A DNA stretch of 64,000 bases from Schmidtea polychroa (Eukaryota): assembly GCA_044892525.1 (NCBI GenBank), contig CM097885.1, positions 20,896,001 to 20,960,000 on the forward strand, read 5' to 3'. The notes below the pieces were generated by a model. The model did no database searches. It was given only the letters and a program-made list of their open reading frames with translations, and was not told where the DNA came from. Each line of letters opens with the position of its first letter. The first letter of the stretch is position 1. The position numbers were made by a program, and so were the translations under genes. Below are positions 2,112 to 64,000 of the stretch, in pieces.

Positions 2112-2437
2112 AACTAACTATAGAAAGTCAAAATTGTGCATGTAAAAAATTGCAAAATATTTTCTGCAAAAATTTGTTTCACAAATCAATGAATCGGGAT
2201 TTGTAGACAAATTTCTGAAAGGAAAAAATATATAATTCACATTGATAGAAATCCCCGTGATTTTACAAATCATTTATTAACAATTCACCTGTTAATTTAT
2301 CCCAGTGACGCAATGGTAGAAATATTGAAATATTTTCTTTCAATTAGATTTAGAATGAATTATAATTATATATTATTAATGAAATAAAAAAACGCAATTA
2401 AATTTCAATATTAATTTATTTCTCATTTGATTTCCAG

Positions 2438-45044
<42,607 letters not shown>

Positions 45045-57452: not shown

Positions 57453-58855
57453 TTAATAACATTTTTATATTTTTTTAATTAATATGAAATTTAAAAAAAC
57501 ATTTTAATATTAATTAAAATTAAATATTTGAAATTAAATCAAATCTTTACATTGTGATTTACACAAATAAATCTCAATAGATACTTGGAGGAAAACTCCG
57601 TAAACATTGCGAGATGTGTAAAAATACTCTAAAGATTTCTATAAATTATTTGTATTAAAAGAAGTATTTTGTAAAAACAATTCTTTTAAAGTAAAAATAA
57701 TTATCAAATAAAACTTTTAATTATTAGAAATCAAATTTTAAATTACAATAAAAAGTTTAATAAAATTTTATTAAATATATCGGTTTATTAAAATATAACT
57801 GAAATTAATTTAAAAAATAAGTTAAAATAAATACAGTAATTAACAATCGTATGTTGAATGTATGTATGAATATTTAAAAAGAAAAAAAAGAAAACCACCC
57901 AAGGGAATTGATCTACGAAGTACAAAGACAAGCTTTCATGCCAACAAAAGCACATTATTCCCGACGAATTGATAAAAGAATCAAACACCTATTGAGAAAA
58001 AGGAACTCAAACTAGGCCCTGGCACGAACAAGGAAACACTGAACGAAAGCGAAAACATTACAATGAACAAGGAAAGCAAAGAATTAGTAACCGACCTCAC
58101 AAATTCTTTATCCGATTGTGAAAAAGGATTACTTTCACTAGAACCAAAGTTCAGTATAAGCAGAGAAATAGATGACACAGCCATCCTCAATTTCAAGATA
58201 GTTCTTTGCTCATTGCGTACCAAATCAAATAGAACAATACGATACCTCAGGAAAATAACCAAGAAAAGCTCCCAGCATATACAAACGCAGACAAATTCTA
58301 TCATCAAAATCCTGATGCAGAATTAGATTCAACACTTTCAAAGGTTTGTCGCAAAATTTTTAAAATTAAAAAATATTTAAGCAAAAATAGTTAAATTGCG
58401 TTTATAAATAGTTATTGGAAATTATTTTATAAATATTTTAAGGTATTATTTATTAAAATAGGTTTCTAGGACCTAATTATAAAAGCTTTAAAAATTTAAA
58501 AATTTTACTTAGTGAGTTGTTTTGTATTTTAAAGGATATTTAAATAAAAAGAATTTTTTAATGTTAAATTCGTCAGAAAAAAAATATTATTATTTTTAAT
58601 CAATGATAAGTAAGAAAGGGAAATAAAAGAGAAGATCAAAGAGCGTTTTAGAAAATAGAAGAAGCTAAATCCCATGAAATTGAAAAGGGCTATCTTATAG
58701 TCGAAATTTTTTCATTTGTATTAAATATATTATTCGCAGCAAAAGGCTTAAATTATCATTTAATTGTTCTAAAATATTATTATTATTATTATTACTATTA
58801 CTATTATTACTATTACTATTATTACTATTACTATTATTACTATTACTATTGTTAC

Positions 58856-58934
<79 letters not shown>

Positions 58935-58966
58935 ATTATTATTAATATTATTATTATTATTATTAT

Positions 58967-59292
58967 TGTTTAATTCGATGTTCGGGTCTGTGTGCGCCTT
59001 TTACTATCCTTGTGTTGTTGGCTGTGGGCGCACACAGACGCATATAGTTGTGGGTGTTGTTTGGCTTTTTGTGTTCGCGTCTGTGTGCGCGGTCTGGTTA
59101 GACCGATTCTTGTGGGTGTGCGCACACAGATGCGAGAGAAATTAATGGTTGGTAAATTAAATTGATTTTGCTGGATTAATTGCTTTAAAAGGATTTTAGT
59201 GGAATTAAAAATGTTTTGGTGAAATTGTTTTACTGGGAGAAGTTTCGTTATTTGGTTCTAGAAGTTTTTTGTGATTATAATTGGAATTAACA
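58967..59292 (+). repeat. Putative 5' LTR (326 bp) of the BEL/Pao element
   Basis: Starts TGTTTAATTC right after the microsatellite and ends GAATTAACA (imperfect terminal inverted repeat, TG..CA). Followed by PBS-like tttgtttcgaaaccgga. The 3' LTR is not in the window. Confidence 0.7.
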
Positions 59293-59326
59293 ATTTGTTT
59301 CGAAACCGGACGTTGCCAATAATCAA

Positions 59327-59419
59327 ATGAATCCCGAATTGGAAGATGATACTTATACTGAACAATGCAGAAGCACAATTGGAGTTGACTTTAAAATCAG
59401 AACTATTGATTTAGATGGA
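59327..59419 (+). other. Captured Rab1 GTPase fragment (N-terminus plus switch I / beta2) at the polyprotein start
   Basis: [31 protein letters not shown] versus Rab1 MNPE...[25 protein letters not shown] (Rab1 sequence recalled from memory). Confidence 0.9.
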
Positions 59420-62400
59420 ATTATTGTTGTATATGCGAAAGGAAAAGTTCCCGATAAAATGATTGAGACGAGTTCAGCTACGAGATTGTTTAATATTACT
59501 GAAAGTACTGGAGGCGTTATGATTGGTATGATCCCTGATTGTCGATCTCAAGTATGTCGTGCACAAATGGAAGCAGCTCGATTTAGATATAAACATGGAT
59601 ATGAAATGCCTTGCGACAGGATATGGCGTTCTATGGCGGATATGGCTCAATTCCATTCCCAATCGGCACCAAGGCGGCCATTAGGATGTTCAATGATGGC
59701 GGTATCTTCGATTATAGACCTGGACAAATTGTTATCCAAAAATAAAATCATTGTTCGCGATATTGACTTTAAAAATGAACATGGTAGCAGAGCGTGGTTT
59801 CGGCTAGCCAGCCGGAACAAGGTAATTAATATGTATTATAAAATGTCTTTTTTGGTTTTATATATATTATGTAAATATTATGTTTATTATGTGTTTAATA
59901 ATATTTTTGTAATTAATAATATTTTGGTAATTAATATGTATTATAAAGAATCTTGTTTGTGGTCACGCATATTATGTATATATTATAATACTTTTGTAAA
60001 ATTAAACATCCTCCCTTCCCTACCGAGCGTGGGAAAGTGCTGCTATGGGCCCCAGCACTCTTTTAAAGGGGGAAGCCAGGGGAACAGGGTAAAGAACAGA
60101 GCTGAGTCAAGGGTGAGGGCGAGCGGGGTAATGGGTTTTGAGTTGCGATGGGAAAGTCAAATATTTGTCAAAACTCTTACTGGTAAGACAATTACTCTGG
60201 ACGTTAAATGGAAGGACACAATTGAAAAGATAAAAGGAAAAATCCAGGACAAAGAAGGAATTCCGGAAAATTATCAAATGTTAGTATACGCAGGAAAGCA
60301 GTTAGAAAATAAAAGAAGATTGAATGATTATAGGATACAAGTAAGGTCGACACTTCATTTGTCACTCAGGCTGTGCGGGGGCAATGACGAAGAGATTTTA
60401 GAAGAAGGACTGTGGAAAAAGAGAATGAAAAAAGGAAAATTAACGAGATTAAGAAACAAGATTCTCAATGATATAAATGGGAAGGATGTTAGCGAATGGT
60501 TGGCGGAATATGAAGATCAAAAGGAGAGTCTAGATGAAGAATTAGGGGATCTGAGAACAATCAGTAAAAAATTGCAAAGATTGGACATCACTGCAATCTT
60601 AGATAAAGACCTGCAAGAGATCGAGGAAAAACATCAAATAATTGGGGCATTGATGGAAAGAAAAGCAAATCAATCTTTTATGGAAGAGAAGGAAAATGTG
60701 AATGATGATACCATCAAGAAGAATAATTCCGGGCATAAAAGAAAACTGGAAAGTCTACAGAAAATTACAATCCCTGTTTTTGAAGGCAAGATGAAAGAGT
60801 ACGAACCATGGAAAGCAGCTTTTACTGCATGTGTTGACGAAGCGGAAGGTGATGAGGTTGAAAAGATGTTTCACCTGCACAAGTACCTTCACGGAGAGCC
60901 ATTAAAGTTAATTGAAAATCTTGGATATTCGGCAGAGGCTTATCAAATGGCAAAAGAGAAGTTGGATAGGCGATATGGTGGGGATGAAAGGATATATTTA
61001 TCAATGTTAGAGGAGATGGAACAGTTCAGGCCAATTCGAGAAGGAGATTTGAAGGATCTAGACTCATTTGTTGGATTATTAGAAACGGTCACCGTGCGAT
61101 TTAAATCCACTGGGAAAGAATCCGAGTTAAAGACTGGCTATCTTTTTCAAAAGTGTTTGGGCAAGTTAACGACGAATCTTGTGTATAAATGGAAAAAAGA
61201 CAAAATAGAAAAGGAATTGCGGGAGACGATAGAGGATTTGAGAAGATGGATACAACAAGAAGCGGAGATCCTAAGGTCCACTAACGAGGTTGTGTATGGG
61301 ACTAAACCAAGCACCAGGGCTTATGATGGGTCAAGAGTAGAAGGGGTGTCTAGGGGAAGAGAAAGATTCAATCCTGGAGGTCGGACGCATTTTACGGGGC
61401 AACCAGATGGCAGAGTTAAAAGTGGAACAGTTATACAGGTGAATAACTCTAACGGCTATAGATCAGAGTGTGTACACTGTGGTGGTCAACATTACCTAGA
61501 CCAATGTGACAAGTTCAAGCAACTCACAATTCCTAAAAGGAAGAAAGTCATCGAAGAAAAGAAACTGTGCAGGAATTGCTTTAAAAGAAATCACATGGCC
61601 AAGGAATGTCGTAAAGAATCTTTCTGCAAGGTTACCGGATGTAAGCAAAGGCACAACGAATTATTACATGAAAGACAAATTAGTGAGGAGAGCGAAAAAG
61701 GTAACAACACGATGCTGACCCAGAAAGGGATGAACGAGAAAAACCTAAGACCTTACCTTAGTTTAAGAACAATTCCAATCTACCTGGAAAATGGGAACAA
61801 GAAAATAAAAGTCAATGCACTGTTAGATGATGCAAGCTCAGTAAGCTACATCAATCTAAGAATTTTAAAGGAGCTTGGGTTAAAAGGGGTGGAAAAGAGG
61901 ACACCGATAGGGGTTATCGGAGGTAATGTCCAACAAATGATGGCTACTCCAGTGACCATGAAGTTAATTAGTAATGACGGCCGATTGACGAAAAACTTCA
62001 ACGCACTGGCCGTAACAAATATCACGGGAGAAATGAAGGTAGTAAATTGGGCCAGAGAAAAACATAAGTGGACTCACCTGAAGGGCATCCATTTTCCGAT
62101 GCTAGACGAGAGACAGGCAGTTGAAGTGTTAATTGGCGCGGATTATTTAACGCTTCAACGAGCACTCAAAGAAATCGATGGTAAGTTGGATGAACCGATT
62201 GCCCGTTTAACGCCACTTGGCTGGACATGTGTGGGAAGAACCTCGGTGGGAAGAACTTGGAACCATCAAAGCAATTTCATACGAACGTTCTTCGGTAATG
62301 GCGAGGATTTGCAACGACAGATGGAGCGATTTTGGGAAATTGATGATAGCGGCTTAAAGGAAAATATATTTGCAGCGAAAGACCAAGCGATTTATGAGAA

Positions 62401-64000
62401 AACCAAATCTGAGATGAAGAAAGTAGACGGACATTTCGAGGTAAAAGTGCCATGGAAAGAGTCACCAACAGCTTTGCCCAATAGTGAAAAAATGGCAGAA
62501 AGTCGACTGCGAAGTTTGGACAAGAGGCTTGAAAAGGAAGACTTACGAACTGAGTATCAGGATATTTTGAATGGTTACCTGAAAAAAGATTATATAAGTA
62601 TTGTAAAAGAGAAAATGATGCCTGGAGATTCGGAATGGATATTACCACACTTTCCCGTGGTTAGAAGAGATAAGGACACCACGAAAGTGCGTATTGTGTT
62701 TGATGCGGCAGCCAGGTGTAATGGGGTGGGACTTAATGATATGGTGGAAGTTGGCCCAAAATTACAAAATGAAGTTTTTGATATTTTAATTCGTTTTCGT
62801 CGATTTTCCGTAGCTGTTGTTTGTGATATAGCAGAAATGTATCTGCAAATAAGAATGGCTCTTGAAGACAGGAAATATCATCGGTTTTTATGGTCAACTG
62901 GGGGGAAAATTATTAAGTATGAGTTTAATCGGTTAGTGTTTGGTCTTAATGCATCTCCATTCCTTGCCCAGCTAGTCGCGCAAGAGAATGCAAAGAAATT
63001 TGAAAAGGACTACCCAAAAGTGACAGAATCTATTTGCAAGTCTACGTATATGGACGACACCATGGACTCTGTTGATTCTGAAGAAGAAGGAATGAGGCTG
63101 AAAGAGGGGCTAGAAACAGTTTGGGGCAATGCCGGAATGCGGCCTAGAAAATGGCTATCCAACTCGGAAAGAATTATGGCGACAATCCCAATTGAAGAAC
63201 GAGCTAAAACACTGAATATTGAAAAGGAAACGACAATGGCCGTCAAGACCCTAGGTTTGAAATGGTACTCGGAAGACGATGAATTTAGTTTTCAAGTAGA
63301 TCTGCCGAATGAGGAATGTTTATCGAAAAGAAAGGTATTGAGCATAGTGGCAAGAATCTTTGATCCATTGGGACTGTTAGGCCCATTCATAATCATAGGG
63401 AAAAAGATTATTCAGAAGTTGTGGTTGTCAGGGCTTGATTGGGACGAAAAGCTACCTCCAAAGTTGAATAAAGAAATACACAAGTGGGTAGAGGACACAA
63501 ATAATCTCGGAGATCTGCGAATTGCGAGATGTTTAAGGACTCAAATGAAAAATGAATGGCAATTACATGTCTTCTCCGATGCGTCAAGCACCGCATATGG
63601 GTCAGCTATATATCTACGGGAAGAAACTATGGTGGGACCTAAAAGTGTGTTAATTGCGTCAAGGGCAAAGGTAGCTCCAGTGCAAATTATAAGTATACCA
63701 AGGTTGGAATTAATGGCCGCGTGTACTGGAGTTAAATTAGCAATACGGGTTTCAGAAGTGCTCGGGAAACCGATGAGTGAGATATGGTTCTGGTCCGATA
63801 GTAAAGACGTAATACATTGGGTTCGAAATTATTCGAGACTATTCAAGCCATTCGCAGCTAATCGAATTGGGTTCATTCAAGAAATGACCAAACCTGGGCA
63901 ACGGCATTATGTTCCAACAAGTGAAAATCCATCGGATTTGATCACAAGAGGATTATCGGCATCGGATTTGATAAACAGCACCATGTGGTGGGAGGGACCG
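59327..64000 (+). CDS. BEL/Pao polyprotein, at least 1558 aa and open at the window end: Rab1 fragment, proteasome alpha-6 fragment, hydrophobic linker, ubiquitin, Gag, protease, RT, RNase H
   Basis: ATG at 59327 after an in-frame TAA at 59288. No stop seen in hand translation, and the track lists no stop-terminated ORF in this frame. Motifs: [11 protein letters not shown]...W..F (Gag, ~60755); [13 protein letters not shown] / [14 protein letters not shown] / [15 protein letters not shown] (~61470-61670); [12 protein letters not shown] (protease, ~61817); [27 protein letters not shown] (63047-63058); [21 protein letters not shown] (RNase H). Confidence 0.93.
59420..59707 (+). other. Captured proteasome subunit alpha type-6 (PSMA6/alpha1-like) internal fragment
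   Basis: [84 protein letters not shown] aligns without gaps to PSMA6 [84 protein letters not shown] (recalled from memory). Confidence 0.92.
60155..60382 (+). other. Complete 76-aa ubiquitin-derived domain immediately upstream of Gag
   Basis: [76 protein letters not shown]; 53/76 identical to canonical ubiquitin by my hand count, no gaps, terminal GG kept. Confidence 0.96.

What the first reader, a model, noticed from the sequence alone, without database searches (positions are those of the whole stretch)
59327..60382. BEL/Pao polyprotein starts with a chimeric leader of three captured host genes (Rab1, proteasome alpha-6, ubiquitin) fused in frame to Gag-Pol
Seen: one stop-free frame runs from ATG 59327 through a Rab1 piece (aa 1-31), an ungapped proteasome alpha-6 piece (aa ~32-127), a ~150-aa linker and a full ubiquitin unit (aa 277-352) into BEL Gag, PR, RT and RNase H. 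All of it lies inside the element, just downstream of the LTR and PBS. The ORF is absent from the supplied track because it has no stop in the window. Established: Rab1, proteasome subunits and ubiquitin are strongly conserved housekeeping genes, and LTR elements can capture mRNA pieces by RT template switching. Inference: each piece has many substitutions yet no stop or frameshift, which suggests an old, translated, selected leader rather than a fresh accident. Two of the three pieces come from the ubiquitin-proteasome system, so the leader may control Gag-Pol processing or stability, or act as a host-mimic decoy. I do not know of this combination in a BEL element, but I cannot search to confirm novelty.
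Basis: partly seen in the sequence, partly recalled or inferred. Interest (0 to 1): 0.93.

Follow-up and report, generated by a model that had tools for sequence, protein, structure and literature searches.

The report
Ubiquitin-fused retrotransposon with host-gene leader
A young BEL/Pao retrotransposon starts its reading frame inside its own terminal repeat, reads through scraps of host genes and then a ubiquitin unit into Gag-Pol, and the ubiquitin probably serves as a built-in cutting site that discards the scraps.

Summary
The open frame and all three host-derived modules are real: Rab1, proteasome alpha-6 (PSMA6) and ubiquitin, in frame with BEL/Pao Gag-Pol. It is no assembly artefact, because the same junctions recur in 13 LTRs at 8 loci.

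The ATG, Rab1 piece and PSMA6 piece lie inside the 815-bp LTR. The frame then reads through the poly(A) signal, the LTR end, a 21-nt tRNA-Met primer binding site and an AT-rich spacer into ubiquitin.

The leader is not a fixed, selected trio. Sister subfamilies swap in pieces of SNF8, a dual-specificity phosphatase or unidentified sequence, always in frame. The pieces are fragments under relaxed constraint. PSMA6-bearing LTRs gave 1473 first-look candidates, and one copy matches the spliced host gene at 257 of 258 bases.

Ubiquitin is the conserved part. It sits at the same Gag junction in six diverged lineages, keeps Gly-Gly in five, and shows purifying selection within the element lineage.

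Best reading (inferred, about 0.55): host deubiquitinases cut after Gly-Gly and release Gag-Pol. The LTR-encoded leader is then free to collect host mRNA fragments, provided the frame stays open. Translation and cleavage are untested. I found no published description.

The parts
58780..58966 (.). (ATT)n microsatellite into which the element is inserted. The same repeat continues after the 3' LTR.
   Evidence: The flanks ATTAT...|TGT and ...ACA|ATTAT are uninformative as a target-site duplication because they lie in a repeat.
58967..59781 (+). 5' LTR, 815 bp, TGT...ACA ends. Its twin lies beyond the window at window-equivalent 65654-66468.
   Evidence: Self-BLAST of L031 matches 468-1282 to 7155-7969 at 814 of 815 bases. 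A polypurine tract AAGGGGGGGAGGA directly precedes the 3' LTR.
58967..59168 (+). The only LTR block shared by all leader types (LTR nt 1 to about 171-202). It is GC-rich with GTCTGTGTGCGC / GCGCACACAGAC repeats. Inferred to be U3 with the promoter.
   Evidence: BLAST of the type A LTR against nine other LTR versions (a tenth, L062, gave no hit): only this block (69-95% identical, 700-930 nt before the LTR end) is common besides PSMA6-derived sequence. The promoter role is inferred.
59327..59329 (+). First in-frame ATG of the long frame. The stop-to-stop frame opens at 59291.
59342..59428 (+). Rab1 fragment (ORF aa 6-34, about Rab1 residues 27-58). No P-loop.
   Evidence: phmmer against solved structures: Rab1A/B, E 1.4e-6 to 2.7e-6. 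Pfam gave no Ras call. The DNA recurs in 139 first-look candidates in the genome.
59423..59704 (+). PSMA6 fragment (ORF aa 33-126, host PSMA6 residues about 47-140), ungapped.
   Evidence: Pfam Proteasome E 8e-17. Solved-structure PSMA6 E 4e-27. Against the host gene's spliced CDS: 71 of 94 aa, 85-88% nucleotide identity, omega 0.36-0.46.
59741..59746 (+). AATAAA, read in frame as Asn-Lys, 41 nt before the LTR end. Inferred poly(A) signal marking the end of R.
   Evidence: An AATAAA sits exactly 35 or 41 nt before the LTR end in 11 of 11 distinct LTR-PBS junctions of all leader types. The function is inferred.
59782..59802 (+). Primer binding site, 21 nt, translated as part of His-Gly-Ser-Arg-Ala-Trp-Phe.
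   Evidence: It is the reverse complement of the 3' 18 nt plus CCA of a host tRNA-Met(CAT) gene, found by ARAGORN in L070.
59797..59828 (+). Conserved post-PBS element: a hairpin at 59797-59818 (9-bp stem, loop AGCC, contains the palindrome GGCTAGCC), followed by AAG|GTAATT, which looks like a 5' splice site.
   Evidence: The 43 nt after the LTR are identical but for one base (T or C) in two families whose spacers otherwise differ. The 60-nt stretch holding the hairpin folds at -16.9 kcal/mol, z -2.35, with 6 of 200 shuffles as good. The function is inferred.
59823..60154 (+). Spacer: an AT-rich part at 59823-60026 (GC 0.19) and a GC-richer part to 60154. It is open in the ORF frame only.
   Evidence: Stops in frames 0/+1/+2 are 0/4/10 and 0/3/3. 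Four different spacer versions are all open, with shuffle P <5e-5, 0.006, 0.006 and 0.012.
60155..60382 (+). Ubiquitin unit (ORF aa 277-352). By my hand count, 53 of 76 residues match host ubiquitin. It ends LRLCGG and is followed by Asn-Asp-Glu-Glu of Gag.
   Evidence: Pfam ubiquitin E 3e-21. Solved-structure alignments. Host comparison. The junction is homologous in six lineages.
60383..64000 (+). BEL/Pao Gag-Pol: DUF1759 at 60779-61198, zinc knuckles, DUF1758-like protease at 61796-62152, RT at 62810-63121, Peptidase_A17 at 63323-63802. The frame ends beyond the window at equivalent 64342, before the integrase region that sister copies still read.

Best explanation
The window holds a young copy of a BEL/Pao LTR retrotransposon. 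It belongs to a clade that makes Gag-Pol behind a ubiquitin unit.

Shown from sequence:
- The long frame begins at an ATG inside the LTR.
- It then crosses host-gene fragments, the AATAAA, the LTR end, the tRNA-Met primer binding site and a fast-evolving spacer.
- It reaches a ubiquitin unit whose C-terminal Gly-Gly abuts Gag.

Inferred:
1. Transcription starts in the conserved 5' 170-200 nt of the LTR, so the variable part is R and sits in the 5' leader of the RNA.
2. Ribosomes start at the LTR ATG.
3. Host deubiquitinases cut after Gly-Gly, as they do in polyubiquitin and ubiquitin-ribosomal fusions. This frees Gag-Pol (new N-terminus Asn-Asp-Glu-Glu) and discards leader plus ubiquitin.
4. 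Because the leader is thrown away, its sequence is unconstrained apart from frame and absence of stops.
5. The leader has therefore become a sink for host mRNA fragments, picked up by template switching during reverse transcription and refreshed by homologous recombination with host mRNAs.

On this reading Rab1 and PSMA6 are passengers and ubiquitin is the working part.
For: Architecture:
- LTR pair, PBS and polypurine tract.
- The PSMA6 frame leaves the LTR in the same phase in every type examined.

Frame constraint:
- In 17 of 23 distinct loci the frame upstream of the PBS is open for 120 aa or more.
- Over 17 distinct junction sequences the median open length is 198 aa in the ORF frame, against 22 and 2 in the other frames.
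- Four unlike spacer versions are all open.

Swappable leader: Rab1+PSMA6, SNF8+PSMA6 (Pfam EAP30 E 1e-6; SNF8 structure E 6e-7), a phosphatase piece (DSPc E 4e-20) and two unidentified leaders sit on near-identical internal regions.

Capture from mRNA, and ongoing:
- LTR PSMA6 pieces are spliced, and one is 257 of 258 identical to the host CDS.
- In the sister family, the first roughly 300 nt of its two ubiquitin units are 98-99% identical to a host polyubiquitin locus. Identity then drops abruptly to about 68%, which is a crossover signature.

Ubiquitin conserved:
- All 9 element ubiquitin units read in this genome end in Gly-Gly.
- The ubiquitin/Gag junction aligns in six lineages that are 37-45% identical. 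The last Gly is invariant and Gly-Gly is present in 5 of 6.
- Within the element lineage the whole ubiquitin unit shows 8-9 synonymous against 3 nonsynonymous changes (P 2e-4 to 7e-4). The adjacent Gag shows 22 against 16.

Promoter argument: only the 5' LTR block and the AATAAA-plus-end are shared by all types.

Precedents:
- In Ty1 the tRNAiMet PBS lies inside the GAG ORF (PMC4974528, passages).
- Cytopathogenic pestiviruses carry one or two host ubiquitin copies directly before NS3 (PMC13517609, passages).
Against: - There is no direct evidence for the transcription start, for translation from the LTR ATG, or for cleavage.
- The sequence context of ATG 59327 has C at -3. Three short out-of-frame upstream ATGs (59130, 59145, 59211) would be in the RNA if transcription starts before them (read).
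- The tail is LRLCGG here and GLAGG in the sister family, not LRLRGG, so deubiquitinase recognition is not assured.
- One related public record has Glu-Gly in place of Gly-Gly.
- 6 of 23 copies have a stop in the leader. One of them (L003/L033) still has a 1984-aa frame downstream, so an internal start is possible.
- An in-frame ATG at 60131, eight codons before ubiquitin, could start translation without the leader.
- Most copies are 97-99% alike, so open frames within one subfamily say little.
- The synonymous excess of the window's ubiquitin against host units is confounded by synonymous divergence among the host's own ubiquitin loci.
Confidence: 0.55

Rival explanations
1. The leader is untranslated RNA, either 5' UTR or U3. 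Translation starts at ATG 60131 just before ubiquitin, or later. On this reading the open frame through the LTR, PBS and spacer is a by-product of young age and of captured coding pieces being open in their own frame.
For: No expression or protein data exist. The runs found were only guessed to be RNA and are contigs. The ATG context is weak. Leader pieces evolve under relaxed constraint. 6 of 23 copies have leader stops.
Against: The frame would have to match by chance in every independent leader type and in four unlike AT-rich spacers. In the sister family no ATG lies directly before the first ubiquitin unit, whose own Met is replaced, yet that unit is kept open. The other two frames carry 2-14 stops over the same stretches.
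Confidence: 0.17
2. The host fragments are themselves adaptive. Either they act as protein decoys that interfere with the proteasome, ESCRT or trafficking, or they act as 'hostages' at the RNA level: small-RNA silencing of an element that carries near-identical pieces of essential host mRNAs would also hit those genes.
For: Several recognised pieces come from ubiquitin-proteasome, ESCRT or trafficking genes: PSMA6, ubiquitin, SNF8, Rab1. PSMA6-bearing LTRs are very abundant and up to 257 of 258 identical to the host CDS. Host-gene capture that targets host silencing genes is discussed for Drosophila telomeric elements (PMC13534243, search listing only).
Against: The pieces are truncated and cannot form their native folds. 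They are exchanged freely among subfamilies. A phosphatase piece, an HSP90 piece and unidentified pieces break the theme. Omega of 0.36-1.8 among PSMA6 copies gives no sign of protein-level selection. The RNA-level idea does not explain the in-frame rule.
Confidence: 0.13
3. Ubiquitin is not cut off. It stays on Gag as a signal, for example to recruit ubiquitin-binding ESCRT factors for particle assembly or release, or to set Gag-Pol turnover.
For: The hydrophobic-patch residue Ile44 is conservatively kept as Val, and Lys48 is kept. From recall: ubiquitin fused to retroviral Gag can stand in for a late domain.
Against: Conservation centres on the C-terminal Gly-Gly at the exact junction. Patch residue Val70 is Ser here. 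From established knowledge, an uncut N-terminal ubiquitin normally marks a protein for degradation. The junk leader would also stay attached to Gag.
Confidence: 0.1
4. Assembly chimera or a one-off accident at this locus.
For: None found.
Against: The Rab1-PSMA6 junction occurs at 97% identity or more in 13 LTRs, as 5 LTR pairs 6.5-6.7 kb apart plus 3 singles, on three chromosome-scale contigs. Both LTRs of this element carry it. Three other copies (L032-L034) align to this element over most or all of its length, the 5' LTR included, at 97.7-99.4%.
Confidence: 0.01

Closest known systems
Cytopathogenic pestiviruses (BVDV strains such as Osloss) with host ubiquitin insertions before NS3
   Same: Host ubiquitin coding sequence, in one or two copies, is acquired by recombination with host mRNA. 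It is placed directly N-terminal to the protein to be released, often with other host or viral fragments upstream as a mosaic (PMC13517609, passages). From recall: cellular ubiquitin hydrolases make the cut.
   Different: Those are RNA viruses, and the insertions arise sporadically in single infected animals. Here the ubiquitin is a fixed, old feature at the N-terminus of Gag in a retrotransposon clade, under purifying selection, and cleavage is untested.
Ty1 of yeast (Ty1/copia group)
   Same: The GAG frame starts upstream of the primer binding site, which lies inside the ORF and pairs with initiator tRNA-Met (PMC4974528, passages).
   Different: It is a different superfamily, with a short leader, no ubiquitin and no host fragments.
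Repbase BEL1-I_SM, a planarian BEL element listed with an incorporated host gene piece
   Same: Abrusan et al. 2013 (PMC3597677, supplementary files 2 and 3) list a host-derived piece at nt 346-589 of its 5685-bp internal region, with Ks 0.025 to the host gene. This is the same slot just before Gag, in a BEL element of a planarian.
   Different: The piece matches FBgn0024733/YLR075W (a ribosomal protein L10 gene, from recall), not ubiquitin. No ubiquitin, PSMA6 or Rab entry is listed for Schmidtea elements there. The LTR part was not analysed. I could not compare sequences because Repbase is not available here.
Natural ubiquitin fusion genes (polyubiquitin, ubiquitin-ribosomal protein fusions)
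   Same: Ubiquitin acts as a cleavable N-terminal module ending in Gly-Gly. The host polyubiquitin seen is the source of the sister family's recent patch.
   Different: Those are host genes. Here the cargo is a retrotransposon polyprotein, and the ubiquitin carries an N-terminal junk extension.
Transduction of host sequences by retroviruses and LTR elements (Gag-onc fusions, captured gene fragments)
   Same: Capture of spliced host mRNA pieces in frame with Gag by recombination during reverse transcription.
   Different: Here the captures lie in the LTR and leader, are many and interchangeable, and do not replace element genes.

Membership tests
BEL/Pao LTR retrotransposon | Paired LTRs with TG..CA ends, PBS after the 5' LTR, polypurine tract before the 3' LTR | tested here: met
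   LTRs match at 814 of 815 bases. The PBS is complementary over 21 nt to tRNA-Met plus CCA. The polypurine tract is AAGGGGGGGAGGA.
BEL/Pao LTR retrotransposon | Gag with DUF1759, Pao-type aspartic protease region, RT, Peptidase_A17 block, integrase | tested here: met
   DUF1759 E 2e-12, RVT_1 E 6e-10, Peptidase_A17 E 2e-45. The integrase zinc domain is seen only weakly in sister copy L035 (E 0.0025, below cut-off). This copy's frame ends before that region.
Ubiquitin (functional, cleavable unit) | Full-length ubiquitin-family match | tested here: met
   Pfam PF00240 positions 1-71 of 72, E 3e-21. Alignment to ubiquitin residues 2-76.
Ubiquitin (functional, cleavable unit) | C-terminal Gly-Gly at the junction with the downstream protein | tested here: met
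   [10 protein letters not shown]. Gly-Gly is present in 9 of 9 element units in this genome and in 5 of 6 aligned lineages.
Ubiquitin (functional, cleavable unit) | Cleavage by deubiquitinases | not testable with these tools
The tail differs from LRLRGG at Arg74.
Proteasome alpha subunit (working PSMA6) | Alpha-subunit N-terminal signature plus the whole proteasome domain | tested here: not met
   Only profile positions 12-110 of 189 are present, and PF10584 is absent. The piece covers host residues about 47-140 of the protein.
Rab/Ras small GTPase | P-loop and the full G domain | tested here: not met
   No Ras or Rab Pfam hit at E up to 1. Only about 29 residues align to Rab1 residues 27-58.
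Pestivirus-like ubiquitin processing site | Host-derived ubiquitin directly N-terminal to the released protein | tested here: met
   The position is shown. Host origin is shown for the sister family's patch, which is 98% identical to a host locus.
Pestivirus-like ubiquitin processing site | Release of the downstream protein by a cellular hydrolase | not testable with these tools
   Needs a cleavage assay.
Ty1-like ORF through the PBS | Translation start upstream of the PBS in the LTR | tested here: inconclusive
   The frame is open and in phase in all leader types, but the transcription and translation starts are unmapped.

The most novel reading that the evidence does not exclude
A clade of flatworm BEL/Pao retrotransposons has turned host ubiquitin into a permanent self-releasing joint. 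Host deubiquitinases free Gag-Pol from whatever the LTR encodes. This makes the LTR leader an open slot where host mRNA pieces are continually spliced in and refreshed. The resulting thousand-plus LTR copies carry near-exact coding sequence of essential genes (PSMA6, ubiquitin, Rab1). They could then couple small-RNA silencing of the element to damage of those genes, which would be a hostage strategy.
Probability: 0.15. Interest if true: 0.88.

Novelty: new variant of a known kind. Interest (0 to 1): 0.74.

Why it matters
If the model holds, this is a natural retroelement that uses a ubiquitin fusion to process its polyprotein. That trick is known from host fusion genes, from sporadic pestivirus recombinants and from the laboratory, but I found no description of it as a stable retrotransposon feature.

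It also gives a concrete reason why one element family can pick up host exons again and again without dying, which bears on exon shuffling and chimeric gene birth.

There is a practical side. More than a thousand candidate copies each of PSMA6 and ubiquitin coding sequence in this genome will distort gene annotation and read counting for those genes. They will probably also confound RNAi against them, in either direction.

Tried and rejected
- RNA evidence: no RNA holder listed. I laid contigs of four runs, three of them only guessed to be RNA. They cover the spacer, ubiquitin and Gag start unspliced, and one contig enters the PSMA6 piece from SNF8-type sequence. No canonical GT..AG joint spans the AT-rich spacer. 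Contigs cannot show starts, strand or level, so I draw nothing on expression from them.
- Intron idea: 59823-60027 (205 nt) would break the frame, while 59823-60068 (246 nt) would keep it. No read support, and the spacer is open in every version, so splicing is not needed to explain the frame.
- Exon-border idea for capture: the borders of the window's PSMA6 piece do not coincide with host exon borders.
- Public protein searches:
  - Leader aa 1-135 hit only two cestode PSMA6 proteins and one plant GTPase.
  - A search that included ubiquitin was swamped by polyubiquitins and was useless.
  - A Gag-only search gave 6 BEL polyproteins, none with ubiquitin; I read the best two, and both start directly with Gag.
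- Unidentified leaders: types C, D and E have no Pfam family, no solved-structure match for the one (type C) searched, and no convincing Atlas match for types C and D, the two searched there (0.80 and 0.90 to unnamed clusters).
- Structure: single-sequence AlphaFold2 of leader plus ubiquitin gave mean pLDDT 31.9, which is meaningless. No fold search was made.
- Selection tests against host ubiquitin units are confounded by synonymous divergence among host loci. I rely on the within-element comparisons instead.
- Literature: searches found no paper describing ubiquitin fused to a BEL/Pao or other LTR-retrotransposon Gag. The BEL/Pao survey PMC3118150 has 0 occurrences of 'ubiquitin' (listing). 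Repbase, Dfam and GyDB could not be searched.
Full report

Yes, for the most part. A single frame runs from ATG 59327 to the end of the window. On the contig it is 1671 aa and ends at window-equivalent 64342.

Pfam finds these domains:
- Proteasome, aa 29-126, E 8e-17
- ubiquitin, aa 279-349, E 3e-21
- DUF1759, RVT_1 and Peptidase_A17, the BEL/Pao set

A sequence search of solved structures gives:
- PSMA6 for aa 33-126 against chain residues 48-141, E 4e-27, ungapped
- Rab1A/B for aa 6-34, E about 2e-6
- ubiquitin residues 2-76 for aa 278-352, with the terminal Gly-Gly kept (LRLCGG)

Every leader segment has no stop in this frame and 2-10 stops in each of the other frames.

**2. Where it really sits**

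A search of the window's own genome (781 Mb; the window is C1:20896001-20960000) shows that window 59000-59781 recurs 6.7 kb downstream. Self-comparison fixes the LTRs at window 58967-59781 and equivalent 65654-66468. They match at 814 of 815 bases and have TGT...ACA ends, and a polypurine tract precedes the 3' LTR.

Directly after the LTR comes TGGTAGCAGAGCGTGGTTTCG. Its complement, apart from the CCA, is the 3' end of a tRNA-Met(CAT) gene that ARAGORN finds in a 454-bp tandem array.

The frame reads out of the LTR through the primer binding site (His-Gly-Ser-Arg-Ala-Trp-Phe), then a 372-nt spacer, then ubiquitin and Gag.

The element is young and sits in an (ATT)n microsatellite. This copy's frame stops before the integrase region that sister copies still read.

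**3. It is not an artefact**

The 120 nt spanning the ATG, Rab1 piece and Rab1-PSMA6 junction occur at 97% identity or more in 13 LTRs. These form five LTR pairs 6.5-6.7 kb apart plus three singles, on three chromosome-scale contigs. Three other copies (L032-L034) align to this element over most or all of its length, the 5' LTR included, at 97.7-99.4%.

**4. The leader is a swappable mosaic**

Copies whose internal regions are 97-99% identical to the window's carry different LTR interiors. Each reads in frame from an ATG in the LTR through the PBS.

| Type | Leader content | Evidence |
|---|---|---|
| A (this window) | Rab1 + PSMA6 | |
| B | piece of ESCRT-II subunit SNF8 + PSMA6 | Pfam EAP30 E 1e-6; SNF8 structure E 6e-7 |
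| B' | SNF8 + a shorter PSMA6 piece + a different LTR end | |
| C, D | 105-230 aa that I could not identify | |
| E | a 384-aa open frame joined in the middle of the PSMA6 piece | |

A sister BEL family ('family 2') shares the PBS-encoded peptide and has two ubiquitin units. Its leaders are made of PSMA6, of the type C sequence, or of a dual-specificity phosphatase piece (DSPc E 4e-20).

Frame statistics:
- In 17 of 23 distinct loci the frame upstream of the PBS is open for at least 120 aa; 6 have a stop in the leader.
- Over 17 distinct junction sequences the median open length is 198 aa in the ORF frame, against 22 and 2 in the other two. These junctions share LTR ends, so they are not fully independent.
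- The PBS-to-ubiquitin spacer exists in four unlike versions (372, 216, 213 and 183 nt; GC 0.33-0.37). All four are open in frame, with 3-14 stops in the other frames and shuffle probabilities <5e-5, 0.006, 0.006 and 0.012.

**5. Where the pieces came from**

The true host PSMA6 gene has short introns, and the PSMA6 pieces in LTRs lack them, so they came through mRNA.

A search with a cestode PSMA6 protein gave 1473 first-look candidates in this genome. All 150 that were scored matched. One of these is the host gene. The twelve I examined are LTR copies of about 900 bp, and at their PSMA6-side end the shared sequence gives way to unrelated sequence or microsatellite.

One such copy is 257 of 258 identical to the host coding sequence. 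The window's piece is only 85-88% identical, at 71 of 94 aa. PSMA6 sequence has therefore entered or been refreshed more than once.

Between the window's piece and the host gene, omega is 0.36-0.46, from 12.5-14.5 synonymous and 19.5-27.5 nonsynonymous differences. By my own rough arithmetic this is a mild synonymous excess at best. Because the host lineage contributes mostly synonymous changes, it is compatible with near-neutral drift in the element.

The window piece's borders do not fall on host exon borders.

Functionally the pieces are fragments. PSMA6 lacks its N-terminal signature and its C-terminal half, and Rab1 lacks its P-loop.

**6. Ubiquitin is the conserved part**

The Pfam ubiquitin model finds 1240 first-look candidates in this genome. 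Of the 150 scored, 95 by my hand count lie in open frames of 400-1395 aa, often as two adjacent units. Ubiquitin fused to long element-like frames is therefore common here.

The window's unit matches host ubiquitin at 53 of 76 residues (my hand count). It is at most 69% identical in nucleotides to the 9 distinct host units, from 4 of the host loci, that I compared, and those loci differ from each other by 14-23%. It is old.

Family 2 shows a crossover signature. Against units 2-3 of one host polyubiquitin locus, mismatches per 38-nt bin run 2 0 1 0 0 1 | 2 0 5 10 12 13. This is a recent host patch of about 300 nt joined, inside a ubiquitin unit, to an old element-resident C-terminal part.

That old part is under purifying selection within the element lineage. 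Between two family-2 sublineages, codons 39-76 show 7 synonymous and 3 conservative nonsynonymous changes. For the whole unit the counts are 8-9 against 3 (P 2e-4 to 7e-4). The first 150 Gag codons show 22 against 16.

All 9 element ubiquitin units I read in this genome end in Gly-Gly.

**7. Beyond this genome**

I searched 1.84 billion representative proteins with HMMER, using the Gag part alone, and took the best 150 hits. I scanned 31 of them with Pfam: the 28 with 150 aa or more of N-terminal overhang, plus three top hits.

Four of the 31 have ubiquitin directly before DUF1759. One of them also has an HSP90 fragment upstream and begins with a PBS-like peptide. Their sources are unnamed.

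Aligned with the window and family 2, the ubiquitin/Gag junction is at the same place in all six lineages, which are 37-45% identical to the window. The pattern is L-x-L-x-G-G followed by Asn, Ser or Gly and an acidic stretch. The last Gly is invariant and Gly-Gly is present in 5 of 6.

A separate Gag-only search of the word-indexed protein collection found six BEL polyproteins, none annotated with ubiquitin. The best two, at 35% and 32% identity, start directly with Gag. The fusion therefore marks a clade, not all BEL elements.

**8. LTR anatomy (inference)**

Across all leader types, only two LTR parts are shared apart from PSMA6-derived sequence:
- The first 170-200 nt, a GC-rich block 700-930 nt before the LTR end.
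- An AATAAA placed exactly 35 or 41 nt before the LTR end. It is present in 11 of 11 distinct LTR-PBS junctions and is read in frame as Asn-Lys.

A promoter has to be conserved, so it is most likely in the 5' block. The variable leader would then be R, present at the 5' end of the RNA, and the AATAAA would mark the R/U5 border.

The 43 nt after the LTR are identical in both families but for one base (T or C). They comprise the PBS, a hairpin whose 60-nt stretch folds at -16.9 kcal/mol (z -2.35), and AAG|GTAATT.

By analogy with retroviruses, a 5' splice-site-like sequence just after the PBS could bind U1 snRNP and suppress the poly(A) signal of the 5' LTR. I saw only the search listing and the abstract start of PMC3694450 on foamy viruses. 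This is a lead, not a result.

**9. Mechanism proposed**

Shown:
- the architecture
- the in-frame rule
- the mRNA origin and turnover of leader pieces
- the conservation of ubiquitin and its Gly-Gly

Inferred:
- Ribosomes start in the LTR.
- Host deubiquitinases cut after Gly-Gly and release Gag-Pol.
- The leader is discarded, so only its frame matters.
- This tolerance lets template switching during reverse transcription load the leader with fragments of host mRNAs, probably abundant ones.

After cutting, the window's Gag would begin with Asn, which is a destabilising N-terminal residue in the N-degron pathway (recalled). Family 2 would begin with Ser. I make nothing more of this.

I put about 0.55 on the whole model. 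Taken one at a time, I would put about 0.7 on translation from the LTR and about 0.6 on cleavage.

**10. Rivals**

- Untranslated leader, with a start at ATG 60131 or later (0.17).
- Leader pieces adaptive as protein decoys or RNA 'hostages' (0.13).
- Ubiquitin retained on Gag as a signal (0.10).
- Artefact (0.01).

The evidence for and against each is in the Rival explanations section.

**11. Comparison with what is known**

- Ty1 already shows a GAG frame that contains a tRNAiMet PBS (PMC4974528, passages).
- Cytopathogenic pestiviruses show one or two host ubiquitin copies, often in mosaics, directly before NS3 (PMC13517609, passages).
- A screen of Repbase listed the planarian element BEL1-I_SM with a recently incorporated host piece (Ks 0.025) just before Gag (PMC3597677, passages and supplementary files 2-3). 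That piece is a different gene, and the LTR was not treated.
- Giant planarian Gypsy elements with extra domains linked to ubiquitination are reviewed in PMC6431247 (passages). They are a different superfamily.
- The BEL/Pao survey PMC3118150 reports two families in Schmidtea mediterranea and does not mention ubiquitin (passages; 0 occurrences in the listing).
- Searches found no description of a ubiquitin-Gag retrotransposon. Repbase and Dfam could not be searched, so the architecture may be catalogued there unnoticed.

**12. Host**

The PSMA6 matches are to cestodes. The genome is AT-rich, 781 Mb, and most of it lies in four very large contigs. From recall this fits the planarian Schmidtea mediterranea. 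No tool named the organism.

**13. Verdict**

What stands is, to me, more interesting:
- a clade-wide ubiquitin-Gag fusion
- a frame that begins in the LTR and crosses the PBS
- an LTR leader that keeps exchanging pieces with host mRNAs

I class it as a new variant of a known kind, with interest 0.74.

Noticed in passing
G000 C1:79326092-79386738 and beyond; locus L070 54-125 (-): The 18-nt 3' end of a tRNA-Met(CAT) gene occurs 1227 times in the genome without a following C. The listed places form a tandem array with a 454-bp period, so this is a very large tRNA-Met gene array. One unit was confirmed by ARAGORN.
   Followed up: partly
window 59797-59828: A hairpin directly after the PBS (9-bp stem, loop AGCC, palindrome GGCTAGCC) followed by AAG|GTAATT. 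The sequence is identical in two element families whose spacers otherwise differ. The order PBS, hairpin, splice-donor-like site recalls a retroviral leader.
   Followed up: partly
loci L061-L063 (sister family), ubiquitin units 1-2: The sister family's two ubiquitin units are a recombinant. About 300 nt are 98-99% identical to units 2-3 of the host polyubiquitin locus in L052. This is joined inside a unit to an old part that is about 68% identical.
   Followed up: yes
loci L038-L049 and window 58780-58966: The window's element and 5 of the 12 PSMA6-bearing LTR copies examined (L041, L042, L044-L046) are followed by ATT/AAT microsatellites. This could reflect an insertion preference, or microsatellite growth at LTR ends.
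   Followed up: no
locus L014 508-1659 (+): A 384-aa open frame of unknown origin, with no Pfam family, is fused in frame to the middle of the PSMA6 piece, 625 nt into the query. It may be a further leader type or a nested insertion.
   Followed up: partly
locus L042 (- strand) 2387-3313: A Gag-like ORF with zinc knuckles lies about 300 bp after a PSMA6-bearing LTR copy, in another frame. Either this LTR type also flanks another element, or the two are merely adjacent.
   Followed up: no
window 43854-45044 (+), 23394-24134 (+), 40375-42285 (+): There is a 396-aa open frame with a tyrosine kinase domain (E 9e-85) and, 20 kb upstream, a frame with a weak Frizzled-domain match (E 1e-5, below cut-off). 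This could be a ROR/MuSK-like receptor kinase gene. Between them lies a 636-aa frame with a reverse transcriptase domain from another retroelement.
   Followed up: partly
G000, one search places such as C2:14086135, C1:233492213, C1:65337292: The Rab1 core (window 59338-59418) recurs at 88-95% identity in at least 20 further places. At five of those I checked, it lies about 170 bp before a PSMA6 piece (residues about 53-185). Rab1+PSMA6 combinations therefore exist in older, more abundant LTR variants too.
   Followed up: partly
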